A stretch of DNA of 64,000 nucleotides from a virus (IMGVR_UViG_3300028840_005764:32001-96000); one strand, 5' to 3'. Shown: positions 51,889-63,722, counted from the first letter of the stretch. Notes: generated by a model from the letters alone, not told the origin. Numbers and translations are program-made.

Positions 51889-51976
51889 TGGCGGAAGGGG
51901 AGGGATTCGAACCCCCGGAGCTTTTACACCCTCTTGTTTTCAAGACAAGTACCATAAGCCGCTCGGTCACCCTTCC
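51889..51976 (-). tRNA. tRNA-Ser(TGA)
   Basis: Cloverleaf, long variable arm, encoded CCA. Confidence 0.92.
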
Positions 51977-53469: not shown

Positions 53470-53702
53470 TTCTTTTTCTCAATCTTTTTCATGACTTTCG
53501 CCATTCTTTTCTCTTGACCGTGAAAACATTTCATGATCTTTTTTAGTGCCTTTTTTGGGTTGTGGTGCATTATCTTACAATGTGTGCTTTGTTCTTCAGC
53601 TACCCATTTTTGATCTTTTTCGTGCCAGAAGACAGAGAATTGGTAGTTTTTTAAGAGAGGATATTTCACTACACAGGCTCCACATCCCAAGCGACCATAC
53701 AA
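53466..53702 (-). CDS. Hypothetical protein
   Basis: ATGA-coupled to next ORF; start uncertain. Confidence 0.4.
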   Translation of the reverse strand: MYGRLGCGACVVKYPLLKNYQFSVFWHEKDQKWVAEEQSTHCKIMHHNPKKALKKIMKCFHGQEKRMAKVMKKIEKKK

Positions 53703-54472
53703 GAGCCAGTGAGAGGAATCGAACCCCCAACATCTTCATTACAAGTGAAGCGCTCTACCGATTGAGCTACACTGGCATACTCAAAATCACCACGTTCGAT
53801 CGCCTCGAGATGTTTGATTGAAGGACGGCATTGGTTCAATGATTTGTTGTTGTTCAATACACTCGTTGCAATCTTCGAGATAATATCCGGATCCGTCCAA
53901 TATGACTGGCCTTTTTTCAATCTCAATTTCCGCACATGGTAACGGACAGCAGATTCTGACAGCTCTGTGACTCTGCAGATTTCTTTGACGGTAATTGTAC
54001 CTGATTTCCAGATTATACCCATTGCTCTGCATTTTATTTCGATTGCTTTTCTGCTTCTTCCAAGGCGTTTGGATGCATATTTCAATGGCATTCTTCCGGC
54101 GAGAAAAAGTAGTAAATCTTCTTCTTTTTTTGTCCATGGTTTTACCTTAATGCCATGTCTTGATGGCATTATTTGTGCTTTCAAACCAAGTTTTTGAAGT
54201 TTGGTCCCAACAGCATTAATAGATCTATTCAGTTTTTCTGATATTTGTTTTTTTGTATGTGTTGGTAGAAGTTTTTTTAGTTGTTGAATTTCTTCATCAG
54301 ACCACGGTGGATTATGTTTTAATTTTGCTATACCAAGTTGATTGACTTTGTTTTGTATTACTTTATGGCTTCTATCTAAAGCTTCTGCAATTTCTTTTAT
54401 TGATCTACGACCATGCCAATATCGTATGTAGTCGTATTCTTCTTCAGTGAATCTTCTTGAATTATCACCCAT
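53669..54472 (-). CDS. Multi-HTH (Myb/SANT-like repeat) DNA-binding protein
   Basis: Three (F/W)(T/S)xxE...IA..L.RS repeats plus a C-terminal HTH; the frame runs through tRNA-Thr. Confidence 0.7.
   Translation of the reverse strand: MGDNSRRFTEEEYDYIRYWHGRRSIKEIAEALDRSHKVIQNKVNQLGIAKLKHNPPWSDEEIQQLKKLLPTHTKKQISEKLNRSINAVGTKLQKLGLKAQIMPSRHGIKVKPWTKKEEDLLLFLAGRMPLKYASKRLGRSRKAIEIKCRAMGIIWKSGTITVKEICRVTELSESAVRYHVRKLRLKKGQSYWTDPDIISKIATSVLNNNKSLNQCRPSIKHLEAIERGDFEYASVAQSVERFTCNEDVGGSIPLTGSCMVAWDVEPV
53704..53776 (-). tRNA. tRNA-Thr(TGT)
   Basis: CTTCA-CTTGTAA-TGAAG cloverleaf. Confidence 0.9.
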
Positions 54473-55661: not shown

Positions 55662-56225
55662 TTATTGAGTTTTTGGTCTTGGATATCTTTTTATTGGCCT
55701 GGGGTATCTTTTTATTTTTGCATTAAGTTCTTTTTTCTTACCGCCATTCCATAATTTGTTTTGACAAATATATCCTATAGTAGACAAATGCACTCCATAT
55801 ATTGATGCAATGTATTTTAATGTATTACCATGTGTACGTAGTGTCTTAATCTCTTCAACGTCTTGTTCAGATAATTTAGCACTTGGATTTTTAGAACCCA
55901 CTAATGAACGTTGATCAAGTATCATGTCATTCATATTATCTTGATGTGTGCCGATGATTAAATGTTTTGGGTTACAGCACAATGTATTATTGCATGTGTG
56001 TCGCACACACATACCACTTGGGATTGGTCCATTGACATCTTCATACACAAGTCTGTGGGCCCTATACCATTTGCGATGTTTTTTTGAATAGTATACTTTG
56101 AACTCACCATAGTAGTTGTTAGTGCGACCCGATCTGGACTTCGCACCAGTCCATAACCAACATTCGTTAGGACCGCGCTGTTCTATCTTCTCCCATATGC
56201 GTTTGTGTATCTCTTTGTCGATCAT
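55662..56225 (-). CDS. HNH endonuclease with C-terminal HTH
   Basis: CWLWTG, AHRL, HTCNN..CCNPKHL..GT..DN. Confidence 0.9.
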   Translation of the reverse strand: MIDKEIHKRIWEKIEQRGPNECWLWTGAKSRSGRTNNYYGEFKVYYSKKHRKWYRAHRLVYEDVNGPIPSGMCVRHTCNNTLCCNPKHLIIGTHQDNMNDMILDQRSLVGSKNPSAKLSEQDVEEIKTLRTHGNTLKYIASIYGVHLSTIGYICQNKLWNGGKKKELNAKIKRYPRPIKRYPRPKTQ

Positions 56226-56396: not shown

Positions 56397-56401
56397 GTGA
56401 A

Positions 56402-56534
56402 TCGGGAGAGGTGGAATCGAACCACCGACCTGGGAGCTCCATATGCTGAAGTGGCGTCTTAGTTCCATGTGTGAGGCACGAGCGTTAGTTTAGACGTCAC
56501 TTACATCCCCGCTCTACCACTGAGCTATCTCCCG
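56402..56534 (-). ncRNA. tRNA-like RNA (Pro-like body) with GAACU-N10-UUCAG module inserted in the anticodon arm
   Basis: Canonical acceptor, D and T arms; ~70 nt at the anticodon loop containing stem AAGTGACGTCT/AGACGCCACTT. Confidence 0.8.
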
Positions 56535-56539
56535 AAAGG

Positions 56540-56680
56540 TGGACGGGCTAGGATTCGAACCTAGAAAAACTATGCTGAAACAACTTCTGAGTTCTCAATC
56601 GTATTGAGTGATGAAAGAAATTGTTGTTGCTTGCGTTGCTAGCTCTATAGGCTAGTGCCTTACCATTTGGCTACCCGTCC
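56540..56680 (-). ncRNA. tRNA-like RNA (ATA anticodon) with GAACU-N10-UUCAG module in the variable arm
   Basis: GGACGGG/CCCGTCC, D arm, CTAGC-CTATAGA-GCTAG, ~75-nt variable insertion, T arm. Confidence 0.8.
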
Positions 56681-56681
56681 A

Positions 56682-56758
56682 TGGTGGGGGCAATAGGACT
56701 CGAACCTATAGCCATCTGCTTGTAAGGCAGACACTCTGCGCAATTGAGTTATGCCCCC
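56682..56758 (-). tRNA. tRNA-Val(TAC)
   Basis: Cloverleaf, encoded CCA. Confidence 0.9.
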
Positions 56759-59841: not shown

Positions 59842-60825
59842 TTACGCACCTGCTGAGCACAGAGACACATAAGGGTAGCCTTGCCGTTCCTTATACAGAA
59901 TTTGCCCAGCCAGTTGTTGGTTGGCTACAGTCGCCACACTCATCTTGGGCAGTCTGCTGTCGGCTGCACCTTCTGACAGCAGCGGCTGTTGTGTCACGTG
60001 TTCGATCGTTTTTTCGCTCAGCAGTTTGACCTGCGCATTGGCGTTTTTCAGTGCGCGGTGAATACCAGCCAGCGATTTGACCTCCACGCTCATGGGCACA
60101 AAGAATTTTGACGCTTGCCTGTGCCGCTTTTGATACTGAATTGCGAGTGAGCCGTAGCAGACTCTTATCAGTGGTTCCCACACACGTTCCCAGAACGCCA
60201 TGTTTGGAGCGCGTTCGACACCAACCACGTTTTCTCCCAGCAAGATGATGGCACCAATTTGTTTTGGCACCAACTCAAACTCAGCTACGAACTCATCCAG
60301 CTGCTTTTCAAAGTGCTTCAAGAAGTAAGTGAGGTGGCCACCAGTATGTGGCACTCCACTTTCTTTGTTCAGACTTCTGATGTGCGGCCAGATCTTGTCA
60401 TAACCTTGTCTGTGTCTCATACTGAGAGCATGAGATCGTATTGATGCTGGCAATACCAACATGGTGATCGCTTTCTGGTCTCTGATGTAACCACCTTGGC
60501 TGTCCTCGATGCACATGGCTGTCTCGATGGACTTGCGGCCGTTTGCTTTGACCAAAAACGCGCTTGGCACAGCGTGGTCTTGTGCACGTTCTCTTGTCAC
60601 CCAACCAGCACCTGTCGGTACGATGCTTGGTCGTGTGCTGTCTGTATTGCGCACTTGAACCGTACCATAGTTCGATGTTTCCACATGGAAGTCTGGTGGT
60701 GCGAAGTCGTCATCTTGCGCGTCGCCCTCGTCGATGAGCGGGATGACAGACATGTGGCCCACGGTTTGGGTTCTGCCACGTCCCATTCCTCTGAGGATTT
60801 CTTCGACTGTGAGGTTGCGTGTCAT
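59842..60825 (-). CDS. ARPP-1/DUF6569-like protein
   Basis: MSVIPL..V.N..RP...AQDH...CIE..QGG and QIGAII....VGVE pattern recalled from that family; ATGA-coupled to vWA gene. Confidence 0.55.
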   Translation of the reverse strand: MTRNLTVEEILRGMGRGRTQTVGHMSVIPLIDEGDAQDDDFAPPDFHVETSNYGTVQVRNTDSTRPSIVPTGAGWVTRERAQDHAVPSAFLVKANGRKSIETAMCIEDSQGGYIRDQKAITMLVLPASIRSHALSMRHRQGYDKIWPHIRSLNKESGVPHTGGHLTYFLKHFEKQLDEFVAEFELVPKQIGAIILLGENVVGVERAPNMAFWERVWEPLIRVCYGSLAIQYQKRHRQASKFFVPMSVEVKSLAGIHRALKNANAQVKLLSEKTIEHVTQQPLLSEGAADSRLPKMSVATVANQQLAGQILYKERQGYPYVSLCSAGA

Positions 60826-62435
60826 GACAGTGCCTTTCTCGTCTCAACTGACCCCAGGGCCAGACGTAGTAGGGCGTTGATTCCATTCACTGGCTCTGCC
60901 TCGATCATCCCTCGGATGAAGGTGGCTGTGAGCTGCCCAGGTTGCTGCACTGGCATTGTTGGTACACCGTCGTTGGGCGCCAGCTCACGTGCACCTTTCG
61001 ACTCGGCAGCGAACACCGGGTTTAAATGATACACAGGCGTATCAATACCGATCTCCCGCACGTGGTGCATGACCTCAGCGAAGCGCCCGGCTGGTGCATT
61101 CTCGTATCCGTCGCTGATCACGAACACAGCCTCGGGTTCGTCGTTCAGCGCCTCCACCAAGCTGTCAGCAATGGCTGTGTCACCCATCGGACGGACGAGA
61201 CCATCGCCAGCTTCGATGTCTGTACCACTGACATGGTACTCCTGACTCTCATCACCGGTGTGCAACAGGGTGTCGCGCATGGCCAAGGCCACCGCCAGGG
61301 GTCGCAGTGGTTGGCTGCGGTGACCAGCCATCGATTGTGACGCGTCCACGATGACGGCCACCGATTTGTAGCGCGTTGGGAACATCGCTGCGGTCTCCTT
61401 CGCCTTCTCGTCCAAGGCGTTCGCAATCTCTTGCGTCAGCCCACACTCGAACGCGTAGAGGTATAGGCGCACAGCGTCGTACTTCGTCGGGTCCATGTCG
61501 ACTTCGACGTTTGCGCGCTTTGCTCTTTTCTGTACTGCCATCTTCTGGTGGCCGGTGAGCTTGCCGCCCTTGGCCACAAGTTTCAGCACATCCTCCTTCT
61601 TCGTGTCGGGGTGGTATGTGCTTCTCAGGCCCTCCAGGACCTCCAGAGGAAGTTTAGAGCCAGCCTTGATATCTTCCTTCGCTTTTTCAAACGAAACGAA
61701 GAGAGGCAGGCTCAGGCGTTCACGCACGTCCAGGATGAAGCCCACGCACTCGAGCACTTCCTTGTATCTGTTCAGCTGGCAGTGCTTCCGGATGTTCTGC
61801 TCGAGAATCGTTAGCTCCTTCTTCTTTCGGTAACGCCCACCCTTCTTCAGGATCGATCCGATGATTGATGTTAGCCGTAGGCCCCAGGCGTGGGTCAGTG
61901 CCGCCCGCATTTTTGTCCTGTACTTCACCGACCAGAGTTGCAGTCTCGGGCTCGAGAGCAGCGTGCGCAGGATCAGTTTTCTTGTCCTGGCGTTGTTCGC
62001 CTTCTTCAGACCCAGGGATGCATCACCCACCCGCAGTCCATCGATCAGCTTCAACATGCGCTGTGGTGGCAGAGCTTGGAACAGGTGGTACAGCACCATG
62101 CGTTCTTGTCCCGGCTCGAGGAACGCTTGTTCCACGCCGTTCCGGGGGAATGACAGCAGCTTCTTCATACCGATCTGCACGCTGCGGTCGGTCAACCCTG
62201 GCAGCGTCAACAGCACGGCGTATACGTCCCTCTCCAGGCCAAAGAGTTCGTCGTGCACACGCAGTTCGGCAGCCTGTTGTTCGGCGCGCGTGTTGTAGTG
62301 CGTCGCGCGCCCCATGGAGCTGACAGCTGTGTCCAGGAATGAGCAGACGGATTTGCTCATCTTCTTCACAGCAGTCTTGTTCCGTGGCATCCACAGCAGC
62401 TGTTCATTCGAGTGCGTTTGCACCAACGTATTCAT
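60822..62435 (-). CDS. Helical N-terminal + C-terminal vWA protein (Ro60/TROVE-like architecture)
   Basis: GAGGTGA RBS; basic all-helical N-terminal ~350 aa; MIDAS VIVDASQSM...T...VFVISDGYEN. Confidence 0.7.
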   Translation of the reverse strand: MNTLVQTHSNEQLLWMPRNKTAVKKMSKSVCSFLDTAVSSMGRATHYNTRAEQQAAELRVHDELFGLERDVYAVLLTLPGLTDRSVQIGMKKLLSFPRNGVEQAFLEPGQERMVLYHLFQALPPQRMLKLIDGLRVGDASLGLKKANNARTRKLILRTLLSSPRLQLWSVKYRTKMRAALTHAWGLRLTSIIGSILKKGGRYRKKKELTILEQNIRKHCQLNRYKEVLECVGFILDVRERLSLPLFVSFEKAKEDIKAGSKLPLEVLEGLRSTYHPDTKKEDVLKLVAKGGKLTGHQKMAVQKRAKRANVEVDMDPTKYDAVRLYLYAFECGLTQEIANALDEKAKETAAMFPTRYKSVAVIVDASQSMAGHRSQPLRPLAVALAMRDTLLHTGDESQEYHVSGTDIEAGDGLVRPMGDTAIADSLVEALNDEPEAVFVISDGYENAPAGRFAEVMHHVREIGIDTPVYHLNPVFAAESKGARELAPNDGVPTMPVQQPGQLTATFIRGMIEAEPVNGINALLRLALGSVETRKALS

Positions 62436-62493
62436 AGCATCACCTCTCCCGTGGAGTTCTCCATCAAATTGTTTGTGGAGGAAAGGAAAGATC

Positions 62494-62563
62494 TAGCGGT
62501 AATTACGGAAGCTGGGTCTTTGACATAAACTATTTGTCTGAACCAGCATCACAGTTCCCGCTA
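62494..62563 (-). ncRNA. Minimal GAACU-N10-UUCAG motif RNA (no tRNA domain)
   Basis: TAGCGG/CCGCTA ends, GCTGG/CCAGC stem, GACA/TGTC apical hairpin. Confidence 0.65.
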
Positions 62564-62570
62564 AAAGAAA

Positions 62571-62694
62571 TGGTTGAGTCAATTAGAGCATCACGTTTTC
62601 TAAGTGACTGGACTTGAACCAGCTACCTACGGTTTTCAGGACCGTTGCTCTTTCCAACTGAGCTACACTAAAGTGACCCTCAAGTTCTCAACCA
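62571..62694 (-). ncRNA. Y-RNA-like: tRNA cloverleaf whose acceptor stem is extended by the GAACU-N10-UUUAG module
   Basis: TGGTTGAG/CTCAACCA ends; D arm, ACGGT-CCTGAAA-ACCGT, GCTGG-TTCAAGT-CCAGT. Confidence 0.8.
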
Positions 62695-62709
62695 AAACAA
62701 GGCGTTTAA

Positions 62710-62833
62710 AGCGAGGGAAGTAGGACATCACGATTGAGTGAAAGAGAAGGATTTGAACCTTCAACCTTCGGCTCTGCATGCCGATGCTCGACCACTCGAG
62801 CTGTCTTCCTAAAGTGACCTCCAAGTTCTCGCT
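62710..62833 (-). ncRNA. Y-RNA-like: tRNA cloverleaf (GCA loop) whose acceptor stem is extended by the GAACU-N10-UUUAG module
   Basis: AGCGAG/CTCGCT ends; D arm, TCGGC-ATGCAGA-GCCGA, GAAGG-TTCAAAT-CCTTC. Confidence 0.8.
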
Positions 62834-62837
62834 AAAA

Positions 62838-62871
62838 AATATATACCACAGGTGCTCGAACTTTTCGCAAG
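62838..62871 (-). promoter_or_regulatory. Promoter of the ncRNA-vWA-ARPP unit
   Basis: TTGCGA ... TGTGGTATAT immediately before the first ncRNA; A-rich UP-like tract upstream. Confidence 0.6.
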
Positions 62872-62999: not shown

Positions 63000-63722
63000 T
63001 TATTCTGCAATTGCGTCGTTGATCGCTGCATATATTTCATCTTTTGCTCTTGCTATTTTATAGTATGGAACATGGAAAAATTCAGCTAGATGATTATTAC
63101 GTATCACAAATTCAAATGGCAAATTGGATATGAGGCCTACGTGGCGTTCACGCATTTTTTGAATACGATCGTTTTTAATTTTATTCACCAGCTCTTCTGG
63201 TGGTGTGAGTAGTGAATGTAGGACACGCCGTGCAAAAGGTTTTAATCTTTTTTCTGTGTGTTCTAATATTTCTTTGTATCTATAATCCCATTTTGCTTGG
63301 CATGAATATGGATATGATTTGATTTTATCGACTGAGATATCTTGGTTTTTCATTACCTCAATTTTTACATGTTGTTTTGGATCTTTAGGTGTGTATTTAG
63401 AATCTTTTCTAAATGCTGTCACAGCAGTATTTAAGAAGTTTTTGCGTGCTATATACATACACCAAGTTTTGATTGATGCGCGTGTCTCATCATATTTGTC
63501 TAGATTCTTAAACATTTTTAAATATGCTTCTTGAACAAGATCTTCTTTATCTATAAATGACGGTATAGATACTTTCCCAGCTTCACGCATAAGGAATGGC
63601 CGCAACTCTTGAATAGTTTTGAGGAATAGCTGTTTTCTTTCGTCAGTGACTGTGAATTTTTTCTGGCGTGGATAGAGTTTCGGGCGTGGGCGGAGCTTCG
63701 GGCGTGGTTTTCTGACAATCAC
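63000..63722 (-). CDS. Phage sigma-70-family RNA polymerase sigma factor
   Basis: GGAGG RBS; DKEDLVQEAYL...YD..RASIKTW...ARK region-2 motif; C-terminal HTH. Confidence 0.8.
   Translation of the reverse strand: MIVRKPRPKLRPRPKLYPRQKKFTVTDERKQLFLKTIQELRPFLMREAGKVSIPSFIDKEDLVQEAYLKMFKNLDKYDETRASIKTWCMYIARKNFLNTAVTAFRKDSKYTPKDPKQHVKIEVMKNQDISVDKIKSYPYSCQAKWDYRYKEILEHTEKRLKPFARRVLHSLLTPPEELVNKIKNDRIQKMRERHVGLISNLPFEFVIRNNHLAEFFHVPYYKIARAKDEIYAAINDAIAE

What the first reader, a model, noticed from the sequence alone, without database searches (positions are those of the whole stretch)
62494..62871. Tandem of three Y-like RNAs heading the vWA operon, with cloverleaves that have no free acceptor end
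Two RNAs have intact D, anticodon and T arms (loops CCUGAAA and AUGCAGA). Their acceptor helix continues into the motif stem instead of ending in NCCA, so they could not be aminoacylated unless processed. The third keeps only the handle plus a short hairpin. All three follow one TTGCGA...TGTGGTATAT promoter. tRNA scanners would probably call them pseudo-tRNAs and miss the outer stem.
Basis: partly seen in the sequence, partly recalled or inferred. Interest (0 to 1): 0.8.

Follow-up and report, generated by a model that had tools for sequence, protein, structure and literature searches.

The report
Phage Y-like RNAs displaying sealed tRNA mimics
Three small RNAs at the head of a phage operon share one conserved "handle" stem. 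Two of them carry a complete tRNA look-alike whose acceptor end is sealed by that handle, and they appear to be the RNA partners of a very diverged Ro60-type ring protein: a widespread branch of the Ro60/Y-RNA particles for which I found no published description, not real tRNAs.

Summary
On the minus strand lie three tandem RNAs: R1 62833-62710, R2 62694-62571 and R3 62563-62494. Each is closed by the same handle: an outer stem, an internal loop with GAACU, a 9-10 bp inner stem, then UUYAG. R1 and R2 carry full, non-permuted tRNA cloverleaves (anticodon loops AUGCAGA and CCUGAAA). R3 carries a short hairpin.

A covariance model finds the handle-plus-tRNA RNA upstream of the gene in 20 of 21 viral and about 20 of 31 bacterial loci. 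All helices covary (94.7% paired against at most 44.5% in slid controls, on sequences outside the seed).

Anticodons drift freely among family members, U33 is often lost, and Ser/Leu anticodons sit on short-variable-loop bodies. These RNAs are therefore mimics, not decoders.

Compared with YrlA, the handle motif differs, the wiring is not permuted and the anticodon arm is displayed. No paper I found describes this. The scan has reached the same reading on at least eight other genomes. There are no expression or binding data.

The parts
62840..62870 (-). Promoter-like site: -35 TTGCGA (62870-62865), 19-nt spacer, extended -10 TGnTATATA (62848-62840)
   Evidence: Read directly from the sequence. 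The consensus scan does not report it because of the 19-nt spacer. Several related loci have near-consensus TTGACA-N16/17-TAnnnT promoters at the same place before their first RNA (sequences). Function is inferred.
62710..62833 (-). R1: 124-nt Y-like RNA, made of the handle plus a non-permuted tRNA-like body (62738-62810, anticodon loop AUGCAGA)
   Evidence: Fold. ARAGORN and Rfam tRNA 43.8 bits. Model R1 112.1 bits, full length. Model R2 (the handle-only model) 20.5 bits.
62571..62694 (-). R2: 124-nt Y-like RNA, made of the handle plus a non-permuted tRNA-like body (62599-62672, anticodon loop CCUGAAA with C33)
   Evidence: Fold. ARAGORN and Rfam tRNA 54.1 bits. Model R1 103.1 bits, full length.
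62494..62563 (-). R3: 70-nt short form, made of the handle around a small hairpin (analogous to YrlB)
   Evidence: Fold with z -3.1. Best hit in the window (30.8 bits, E 5e-5) of a handle-only model built from other phages. Short forms occupy the same last position before the gene in L001-L004, L007 and L014.
60822..62435 (-). Ro60-like protein (537 aa): N-terminal helical repeat domain plus a C-terminal vWA domain with all five MIDAS positions (D364, S366, S368, T420, D442) invariant in the 35-sequence alignment
59842..60825 (-). ARPP-1 family protein (327 aa). Its start overlaps the stop of the Ro60-like gene by 4 nt
   Evidence: PF20208, E 6.6e-27. A homologue lies directly downstream in 21/21 viral and 30/31 genomic loci. 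Invariant Cys105, Gln82/Gln110 and His84.
56400..56682 (-). Two further RNAs with the same handle motif, grafted at other sites of tRNA bodies: the anticodon-loop position (56400-56535) and the variable-arm position with a capped outer stem (56536-56682)
   Evidence: Motif hits. Sequence. Folds. Only partly analysed here.

Best explanation
R1, R2 and R3 are the non-coding RNA subunits of a Ro60-type ribonucleoprotein encoded by the operon they head.

Shown here:
- Each RNA is closed by a conserved, covarying bipartite handle. In order it has an outer stem ending in an invariant G-C pair; an asymmetric internal loop (5' RACK, 3' about 6-7 nt); an inner helix of fixed 9-10 bp length; and a UWYAG junction.
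- The same handle recurs on many RNAs next to the same gene pair in phages and bacteria.
- The first protein of the pair has the Ro60 fold.

Inferred by analogy with Ro60/Y RNA:
- The handle is the docking site of the Ro60-like ring.
- The variable module it displays is an effector or bait module. In R1 and R2 that module is a complete L-shaped tRNA mimic with an exposed anticodon arm and a sealed acceptor end. In R3 it is a minimal hairpin.
- The tRNA mimic probably engages a tRNA-recognising factor, or the ARPP enzyme. That would direct the particle to tRNAs. This fits the cassette's location inside tRNA gene arrays and suggests a role in surveillance, protection or clearance of damaged tRNAs during phage-host conflict.
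- The three RNAs are probably made as one precursor with the mRNA and cut in the U-rich spacers.
For: Anatomy of the three RNAs.

Covariation:
- On a sequence-only MAFFT alignment of 19 members, 89.4% of cells pair against at most 45.8% in slid controls. The covariation score is 0.612 against at most 0.176, and 27 of 34 pairs show compensatory changes.
- On 24 sequences not used in the seed, 94.7% pair against at most 44.5%. The score is 0.677 against at most 0.125. Compensatory changes occur at 6/6 outer-stem and 7/8 inner-stem pairs.
- Short forms give 85% against at most 48%.

Synteny:
- Full-length model hits of at least 60 bits lie on the same strand upstream of the Ro60-like gene. This holds in 20/21 viral loci and about 20/31 genome loci.
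- Ordinary tRNAs match only the body of the model (positions 29-102).

Protein: Ro60 fold over the full length. The five MIDAS positions are invariant.

Partner gene: ARPP follows in 51 of 52 loci.

The bodies are mimics, not decoders:
- Among 29 family members the anticodon differs almost everywhere.
- U33 is missing in about 30%.
- A34 anticodons and Ser/Leu anticodons occur on bodies with 5-nt variable loops.
- The D and T arms stay canonical throughout.

Independent membership of R3.

Precedent: YrlA/YrlB and phiLo Yrl1/Yrl2 lie upstream of Ro60 genes and bind Ro60 (PMC4201824, PMC12135203).
Against: - There is no transcript evidence; no RNA run holds the stretch.
- There is no binding evidence of any kind.
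- The Ro60 relationship rests on a predicted structure at 13-14% sequence identity. No TROVE sequence signal appears in any of 35 members.
- The canonical Ro60-binding sequence (GGUCCGA / GNCGAAN0-1G / CGAA) is absent from the handle. The handle could instead bind ARPP or a host protein.
- Some handle-bearing RNAs lie kilobases from the operon: 56.4 kb in the window and 1.8-2.4 kb upstream in L013, L019 and L021.
- The held part of the phage (73% complete) has no RtcB, Rnl or CCA-adding enzyme. The RNA-repair reading therefore has no local enzymatic support beyond ARPP.
Confidence: 0.72

Rival explanations
1. R1 and R2 are genuine tRNA precursors. Their structured leader and trailer are removed by RNase P and 3' trimming, CCA is added by the host, and the products decode UGC and UCA codons. 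R3 would be a processing remnant.
For: - High Rfam tRNA scores (54.1 and 43.8 bits) and canonical D and T arms.
- The phage's undoubted tRNAs also lack an encoded CCA (for example tRNA-Glu).
- M. smegmatis YrlA is cleaved by RNase P and receives CCA in vivo (PMC4201824).
- The cassette lies in a tRNA array.
Against: - R2 has C33, and a Ser anticodon on a body with a 5-nt variable loop. Bacterial tRNA-Ser needs the long arm (established knowledge).
- R1 has G37 and C73 where tRNA-Cys identity needs U73, plus an A1-A72 mismatch.
- The acceptor helices have 5-6 Watson-Crick or G-U pairs, are A/U-rich and contain a mismatch.
- Anticodons are not conserved among orthologues, and many are forms not used in bacteria (A34).
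- The flanks are under strong selection to pair. A leader and trailer do not need this.
- The same handle occurs on non-tRNA hairpins.
- The phage already has standard Ser(tga) at 51889-51976.
Confidence: 0.07
2. The array is a cis-acting leader of the operon, that is an attenuator or autoregulatory operator. The handles would be binding sites through which the operon's proteins or tRNA-binding factors control downstream translation or termination. They would not be stable trans-acting RNAs.
For: - The RNAs sit between a promoter-like site and the first gene, with no strong terminator before the start codon.
- Each outer stem is followed by a U-rich tract that could act as a partial terminator.
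Against: - Handle-bearing RNAs also occur 1.8-6 kb from the operon, and downstream of it: window 56.4 kb, L013, L019, L021 and L017:5523.
- The number and type of units vary freely between relatives.
- Full tRNA tertiary-structure nucleotides are conserved. That is hard to explain for an attenuator.
Confidence: 0.08
3. The RNAs act independently of the Ro60-like protein, as tRNA decoys or sponges for host tRNA-targeting enzymes such as anticodon nucleases or modification enzymes. The handle would serve only as a nuclease-resistant clamp, and the gene linkage would reflect co-regulation.
For: - The anticodon arms are exposed and vary between phages.
- The cassette lies within tRNA arrays.
- The sealed ends would protect against exonucleases.
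Against: - A mere clamp does not need two sequence-conserved loops (RACK, UWYAG) separated by a helix of fixed length.
- R3-type units have no tRNA body at all, yet they are conserved next to the gene.
- The linkage to the gene pair is near-absolute across phyla.
Confidence: 0.1

Closest known systems
Bacterial and mycobacteriophage Rsr (Ro60) with YrlA/YrlB Y RNAs (Chen et al. 2014, PMC4201824; YrlA structure, bioRxiv 10.1101/312249)
   Same: - Tandem small RNAs lie just upstream of a Ro60-type gene on the same strand.
- The 5' and 3' ends pair into a stem with an internal loop.
- The larger RNAs display a tRNA-like module with canonical D and T arms and no free CCA end.
- A shorter second RNA lacks most of the tRNA body.
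   Different: - Here the handle joins the tRNA body at the acceptor end. The body is not permuted and the anticodon stem-loop is intact and exposed. In YrlA the acceptor is a closed hairpin between the T and D arms, the anticodon stem runs into the Ro60 module, and there is no anticodon loop.
- The handle carries GRACK...UWYAG instead of GNCGAAN0-1G.
- The protein has no detectable TROVE sequence signal.
- The constant partner gene is ARPP-1, not rtcBA.
Thermus phage phiLo Ro60 with Yrl1/Yrl2 (PMC12135203; PDB 9KOP, 9L5Y)
   Same: - A phage-encoded Ro60 with two Y-like RNAs upstream.
- Stem / internal loop / stem architecture, with a short purine-rich motif on the 5' side of the loop.
   Different: - The phiLo RNAs were picked by their CGAA motif, and the paper's text does not mention a tRNA-like module (term search).
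- phiLo Ro60 was found as a Ro60 homologue by a UniProt search.
- No ARPP partner is described.
Deinococcus radiodurans Rsr-Yrn1-PNPase (RYPER)
   Same: This is the model for how such a particle works. One RNA module binds the ring. The other tethers an effector, so that RNAs are threaded through the ring.
   Different: The effector module of Yrn1 binds PNPase. Here the displayed module is a near-complete tRNA mimic, the effector is unknown, and ARPP is the only conserved co-encoded enzyme candidate.
ARPP (ARG and rhodanese-phosphatase-associated protein; Iyer et al. 2022, PMC9503650)
   Same: The second gene is a clear PF20208 member with an invariant Cys and Gln. The paper reports such residues as absolutely conserved in ARPP, but I did not map positions onto its alignment.
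   Different: Outside the ARG-centred systems, the paper lists three two-gene neighbourhoods for ARPP: with HIRAN, WYL and aminosugar-deacetylase genes. None involves a TROVE/Ro60-like gene or tRNA-mimic RNAs.
Other tRNA mimics (tmRNA, viral 3' tRNA-like structures, circularly permuted tRNA genes)
   Same: An L-shaped tRNA body is reused outside decoding.
   Different: tmRNA and viral tRNA-like structures have a free, chargeable 3' end. Permuted tRNA genes are processed into real tRNAs. Here the acceptor end is sealed by a conserved protein-type handle and the anticodon is not conserved.

Membership tests
Y RNA (Ro60-associated ncRNA, general) | Encoded next to a Ro60 orthologue, on the same strand | tested here: met
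   R1-R3 end 59 nt upstream of a protein with the Ro60 fold. The same arrangement holds in 20/21 viral and about 20/31 genomic loci. The Ro60 relationship is structural only.
Y RNA (Ro60-associated ncRNA, general) | The 5' and 3' ends pair into a long stem, interrupted by an internal loop or bulge that carries the protein-binding site | tested here: met
   Folds. The outer and inner stems covary. The loops are conserved.
Y RNA (Ro60-associated ncRNA, general) | Canonical Ro60-binding sequence (GGUCCGA in animals; GNCGAAN0-1G / CGAA in bacteria and phages) | tested here: not met
   No CGAA in the 5' strands of R1-R3. The family consensus is G-R-A-C-K, with 54 of 54 instances.
Y RNA (Ro60-associated ncRNA, general) | Physically bound and stabilised by Ro60 | not testable with these tools
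   Needs RIP, EMSA or a solved structure.
YrlA subfamily | tRNA-like module with conserved D and T arms | tested here: met
   Rfam tRNA 54.1 and 43.8 bits. D and T arms are near-invariant across the family.
YrlA subfamily | Permuted wiring: closed acceptor hairpin between the T and D arms, anticodon stem continuing into the Ro60 module, no anticodon loop | tested here: not met
   R1 and R2 run in the order D arm, anticodon arm, T arm. The anticodon loop is a complete 7 nt, and the handle is attached at the acceptor end. Permuted relatives do exist in other loci, but they keep an anticodon arm.
YrlA subfamily | Match to a curated RNA family model | tested here: inconclusive
   Only RF00005 (tRNA) matched at E up to 10. 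I did not verify whether Rfam 15 holds a YrlA model.
Functional elongator tRNA | Cloverleaf with tertiary-interaction nucleotides | tested here: met
Functional elongator tRNA | Seven-pair acceptor stem with a free 5' end and a single-stranded 3' end able to carry CCA | tested here: not met
   As transcribed, both flanks are locked in covarying helices. R1 has six pairs (one G-U) and R2 has five Watson-Crick pairs plus one G-U. R1 carries an A-A mismatch and R2 a U-U mismatch. Later processing cannot be excluded.
Functional elongator tRNA | Anticodon loop and identity elements consistent with the anticodon, and conserved among orthologues | tested here: not met
   R2 has C33 and a Ser anticodon with a 5-nt variable loop. 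R1 has G37 and C73. Anticodons differ almost everywhere among 29 family members, and U33 is lost in about 30%.
Ro60 / TROVE protein (the partner) | TROVE domain detectable by sequence (PF05731) | tested here: not met
   No hit for the protein, for any of 35 family members at E up to 1, or in the six-frame genome search. A profile search against PDB sequences finds no Ro60.
Ro60 / TROVE protein (the partner) | Helical-repeat ring followed by a vWA domain with a MIDAS motif | tested here: met

The most novel reading that the evidence does not exclude
The Ro60-like ring, ARPP and these RNAs form a tRNA-centred conflict machine. The sealed tRNA mimics, with freely diversifying anticodon arms, would act as exchangeable baits that bring tRNA-targeting host enzymes, or damaged or modified tRNAs from the co-encoded tRNA array, to the ring and to ARPP. 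ARPP is a predicted ribose- or ADP-ribose-acting enzyme. The particle would then protect or repair the tRNA pool during infection. The same handle grafted at the acceptor end, the variable arm or the anticodon loop would present different faces of the tRNA.
Probability: 0.2. Interest if true: 0.9.

Novelty: new variant of a known kind. Interest (0 to 1): 0.75.

Why it matters
What the tRNA-like domain of bacterial Y RNAs does has been open since 2014. This branch offers a natural experiment with four features:
- One conserved handle carries tRNA bodies wired in several ways. Here the wiring is non-permuted with an exposed anticodon arm.
- There is always the same two-protein partner set, a Ro60-like ring and ARPP.
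- The cassette usually sits inside tRNA gene arrays.
- It occurs in large phages and in cultured Planctomycetota and Myxococcota, where it can be tested.

The branch also extends the Ro60 family beyond what sequence models detect.

There is a practical consequence. tRNA scanners call these RNAs real tRNAs, including apparent suppressor or Sec tRNAs in relatives (L007 "Stop(tta)", L016 "SeC(tca)"). This can inflate phage tRNA counts and mislead inferences of stop-codon recoding.

Tried and rejected
- **RNA evidence:** the run search listed no RNA holder. Only two DNA metagenome runs hold the stretch, and they may be its source.
- **Rfam:** nothing but tRNA at E up to 10.
- **Sequence identification of the 537-aa protein** gave nothing or only weak vWA hits. 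This covers Pfam, PHROGs, NCBIfam, PDB phmmer, and a profile search against PDB.
- **blastn of the region against 50,697 phage records:** only about 60-nt tRNA-body matches to T4-like phage tRNAs.
- **Promoter scan:** no site under its rules. The one terminator-like site is on the wrong strand, inside R2's anticodon arm.
- **Own genome:** no TROVE, RtcB, CCA-adding enzyme or Rnl-type ligase in the 104-kb record, which is 73% complete.
- **A crude cross-pairing test.** I paired each N10 with its own downstream sequence and with foreign downstream sequence. It gave only a small difference (-9.1 against -7.6 kcal/mol, Wilcoxon p 1e-7). I do not lean on it.
- **Plain MAFFT alignments of divergent members and of short forms** misaligned the 3' handle strand (A6, A8, A10) and were not used for pair counts.
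- **Kink-turn reading of the internal loop:** considered and dropped, because there are no tandem G-A pairs on both strands.
- **Group I intron reading of the insert in the anticodon loop at 56.4 kb:** considered and dropped, because the insert is too short and carries the shared handle.

Full report
**What is there.** The finding lies on the minus strand. Downstream of a weak promoter-like site lie three tandem RNAs separated by short U-rich spacers: R1 (62833-62710), R2 (62694-62571) and R3 (62563-62494). The promoter-like site is TTGCGA at 62870-62865, a 19-nt spacer, then TGnTATATA.

Each RNA folds with its 5' and 3' ends paired (z -2.7, -2.6 and -3.1 against dinucleotide shuffles). The shared architecture, in order, is:
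- an outer stem of 6-8 bp ending in a G-C pair;
- an asymmetric internal loop, with AACU on the 5' side and 6-7 nt on the 3' side;
- an inner helix of 9-10 positions;
- the junction UUYAG;
- a payload.

In R1 and R2 the payload is a complete cloverleaf. ARAGORN calls them tRNA-Cys(gca) at 62738-62810 and tRNA-Ser(tga) at 62599-62672. Rfam's tRNA model scores them 43.8 and 54.1 bits. In R3 the payload is a 21-nt hairpin region. The spaced motif GAACT-N10-TTYAG occurs five times in the window against 0.3 expected.

**The proteins.** R3 ends 59 nt before a 537-aa ORF (60822-62435). That ORF overlaps by 4 nt the start of a 327-aa ORF (59842-60825).
- The second ORF is a clear ARPP-1 family member (PF20208, E 6.6e-27).
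- The first has no hit in Pfam, PHROGs, NCBIfam or PDB sequences.
- A 35-sequence profile finds no Ro60 in the PDB.
- None of 35 family members hits TROVE at E up to 1; only weak vWA models appear.

**Is the RNA structure real and conserved?** The protein has more than 480 homologues. I fetched 21 viral loci and 31 loci from bacterial and archaeal genome assemblies. The latter include complete chromosomes of Minicystis rosea, Stieleria and Novipirellula.
- An ARPP homologue follows the Ro60-like gene in 21/21 and 30/31 loci.
- A relaxed motif (G-R-A-C-N, N9-10, U-H-Y-A-G) with a complementary 3' strand occurs repeatedly upstream of the gene, with 54 clean instances.
- On a sequence-only MAFFT alignment of 19 handle-plus-tRNA members, the six-helix structure pairs in 89.4% of cells, against 39-46% when partners are slid. 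The covariation score is 0.612 against at most 0.176, and 27 of 34 pairs show double changes.
- The covariance model built from that alignment finds full-length matches of at least 60 bits in 20 of 21 viral loci. It does so in about 20 of 31 genome loci; several of the remaining genome loci are cut off upstream of the gene.
- The matches are always on the gene's strand. Most lie within about 600 nt of the gene; some lie up to 2.4 kb away.
- Ordinary tRNAs match only the body of the model, at 61 bits or less.
- On 24 matches that were not in the seed, 94.7% of cells pair against at most 44.5% in slid controls. The score is 0.677 against at most 0.125. Compensatory changes occur at all six outer-stem pairs and at seven of eight inner-stem pairs. 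This alignment is fitted to the model, so the MAFFT result is the cleaner control.
- For R3, a handle-only model built from nine short forms of other phages (85% paired against at most 48%) ranks R3 first in the whole window (30.8 bits, E 5e-5) and R1 second. Short forms occupy the same last position before the gene in L001-L004, L007 and L014.

**tRNA or tRNA mimic?** Across 29 family members:
- The D arm, the 5-nt variable loop and the T arm stay canonical, so the elbow of the L-shape is preserved.
- The anticodon differs almost everywhere.
- U33 is missing in about 30%. In the window, R2 has C33.
- A34 anticodons are frequent.
- Ser and Leu anticodons sit on bodies without the long variable arm that bacterial SerRS and LeuRS substrates have (established knowledge).
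- One loop has 6 nt.

R1 has G37 and C73, whereas tRNA-Cys identity needs U73 (established knowledge). R1 has six acceptor pairs, one of them G-U. R2 has five Watson-Crick pairs plus one G-U. Both helices are A/U-rich, with an A-A mismatch in R1 and a U-U mismatch in R2. Their flanks are locked in the covarying handle. The lack of an encoded CCA is not diagnostic by itself, because the phage's normal tRNAs lack it too. Together this argues that R1 and R2 are structural tRNA mimics with a sealed acceptor end and an exposed anticodon arm. It argues against decoders. Processing by RNase P, as seen for M. smegmatis YrlA (PMC4201824), cannot be excluded.

**Comparison with known systems.** Bacterial YrlA/YrlB and phage phiLo Yrl1/Yrl2 also lie upstream of Ro60 genes. 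YrlA displays a tRNA-like domain without a free CCA end (PMC4201824, bioRxiv 10.1101/312249, PMC12135203). The present RNAs share that logic but fail three family-defining features:
1. The Ro60-binding motif GNCGAAN0-1G/CGAA is absent. GRACK and UWYAG are the conserved elements instead.
2. The wiring is not permuted. YrlA has a closed acceptor hairpin between the T and D arms, and its anticodon stem runs into the Ro60 module.
3. The anticodon stem-loop is present and exposed.

The constant partner here is ARPP. The published description of ARPP lists HIRAN, WYL and deacetylase neighbourhoods, not TROVE (PMC9503650). The 104-kb phage record (73% complete) has no canonical TROVE, RtcB, Rnl-type ligase or CCA-adding enzyme. 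Five literature searches found no description of this branch. The scan's own earlier follow-ups reached the same reading on at least eight other genomes. I treat those as leads and re-derived every point here.

**Mechanism.** Shown here:
- a conserved, covarying handle with two sequence-conserved loops a fixed helix length apart;
- near-absolute linkage to a Ro60-fold protein and ARPP;
- tRNA-shaped but non-decoding payloads.

Inferred:
- The handle docks on the Ro60-like ring.
- The payload recruits a tRNA-recognising factor or positions ARPP.
- The particle acts on tRNAs.

The last inference draws on context. The cassette sits in tRNA arrays in the window, with 20 tRNAs at 51.4-59.6 kb. It does so even more strikingly in bacterial chromosomes, with up to 35 tRNA calls in 7.5 kb around the Minicystis copy and at least 13 in eleven further genome loci. 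I put 0.72 on the RNAs being the partner RNAs of the Ro60-like protein. I put much less on any specific downstream function.

**Limits.** The promoter is weak and unconfirmed. The Ro60 assignment rests on a predicted structure.

Noticed in passing
window 56536-56682 (-): A tRNA body with free acceptor ends (GGACGGG...CCCGUCC-A-CC), anticodon loop CUAUAGA (AUA) and an extra arm of about 75 nt. The arm is the same handle with its outer stem capped by a loop. In effect the handle is grafted at the variable-arm position of a type-II (Tyr-like) tRNA. Unlike R1 and R2, this RNA could in principle be charged.
   Followed up: partly
window 56400-56535 (-): A tRNA-like body with canonical acceptor, D and T arms. 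The anticodon-loop position carries an insert of about 60 nt containing GAACU-N10-UUCAG and a complementary strand. RNAfold alone does not recover a clean handle here.
   Followed up: partly
L009:1940-2090, L010:1362-1514, L011:2298-2454, L012:2275-2430, L013:12-166: A second class on the same handle: circularly permuted tRNA mimics. The order is T arm, acceptor hairpin capped by a loop, D arm, anticodon arm, extra hairpin, then back into the handle. L011's copy shares its T arm exactly, and its D arm and AUA anticodon closely, with the window's 56536-56682 element. The two look like natural circular permutations of one RNA.
   Followed up: partly
L030 (Minicystis rosea CP016211.1), L031, L033, L035, L036, L038, L041, L043, L044, L049, L054: In bacterial chromosomes the Ro60-like/ARPP cassette sits inside very dense tRNA gene arrays: 11-35 ARAGORN calls within 7.5 kb.
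   Followed up: partly
L007:2763-2838, L016:2287-2358: ARAGORN calls handle-borne mimics in relatives "tRNA-Stop(tta)" and "tRNA-SeC(tca)". Such calls could be mistaken for suppressor tRNAs and read as evidence of stop-codon recoding in large phages.
   Followed up: no
window 62695-62709, 62564-62570, and after the outer stems in L005, L007, L008, L011, L014: Each outer stem is followed by a U-rich run (for example CUCAACC-AUUUCUUUU). These could be partial intrinsic terminators or processing sites between units.
   Followed up: no
window 62453-62462 (-): A partial copy of the handle's 5' element (GGAGAACUCC) lies in the 5' UTR of the Ro60-like gene, just before its ribosome-binding site. It could be an autoregulatory site or chance.
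   Followed up: no
window 63000-63722 (-), 53669-54472 (-), 55662-56225 (-): The tRNA/RNA region is flanked and interrupted by three genes: a sigma-70 family factor (Sigma70_r2, E 2e-11); an HTH protein with a sigma region-4-like motif; and an HNH homing-type endonuclease.
   Followed up: partly
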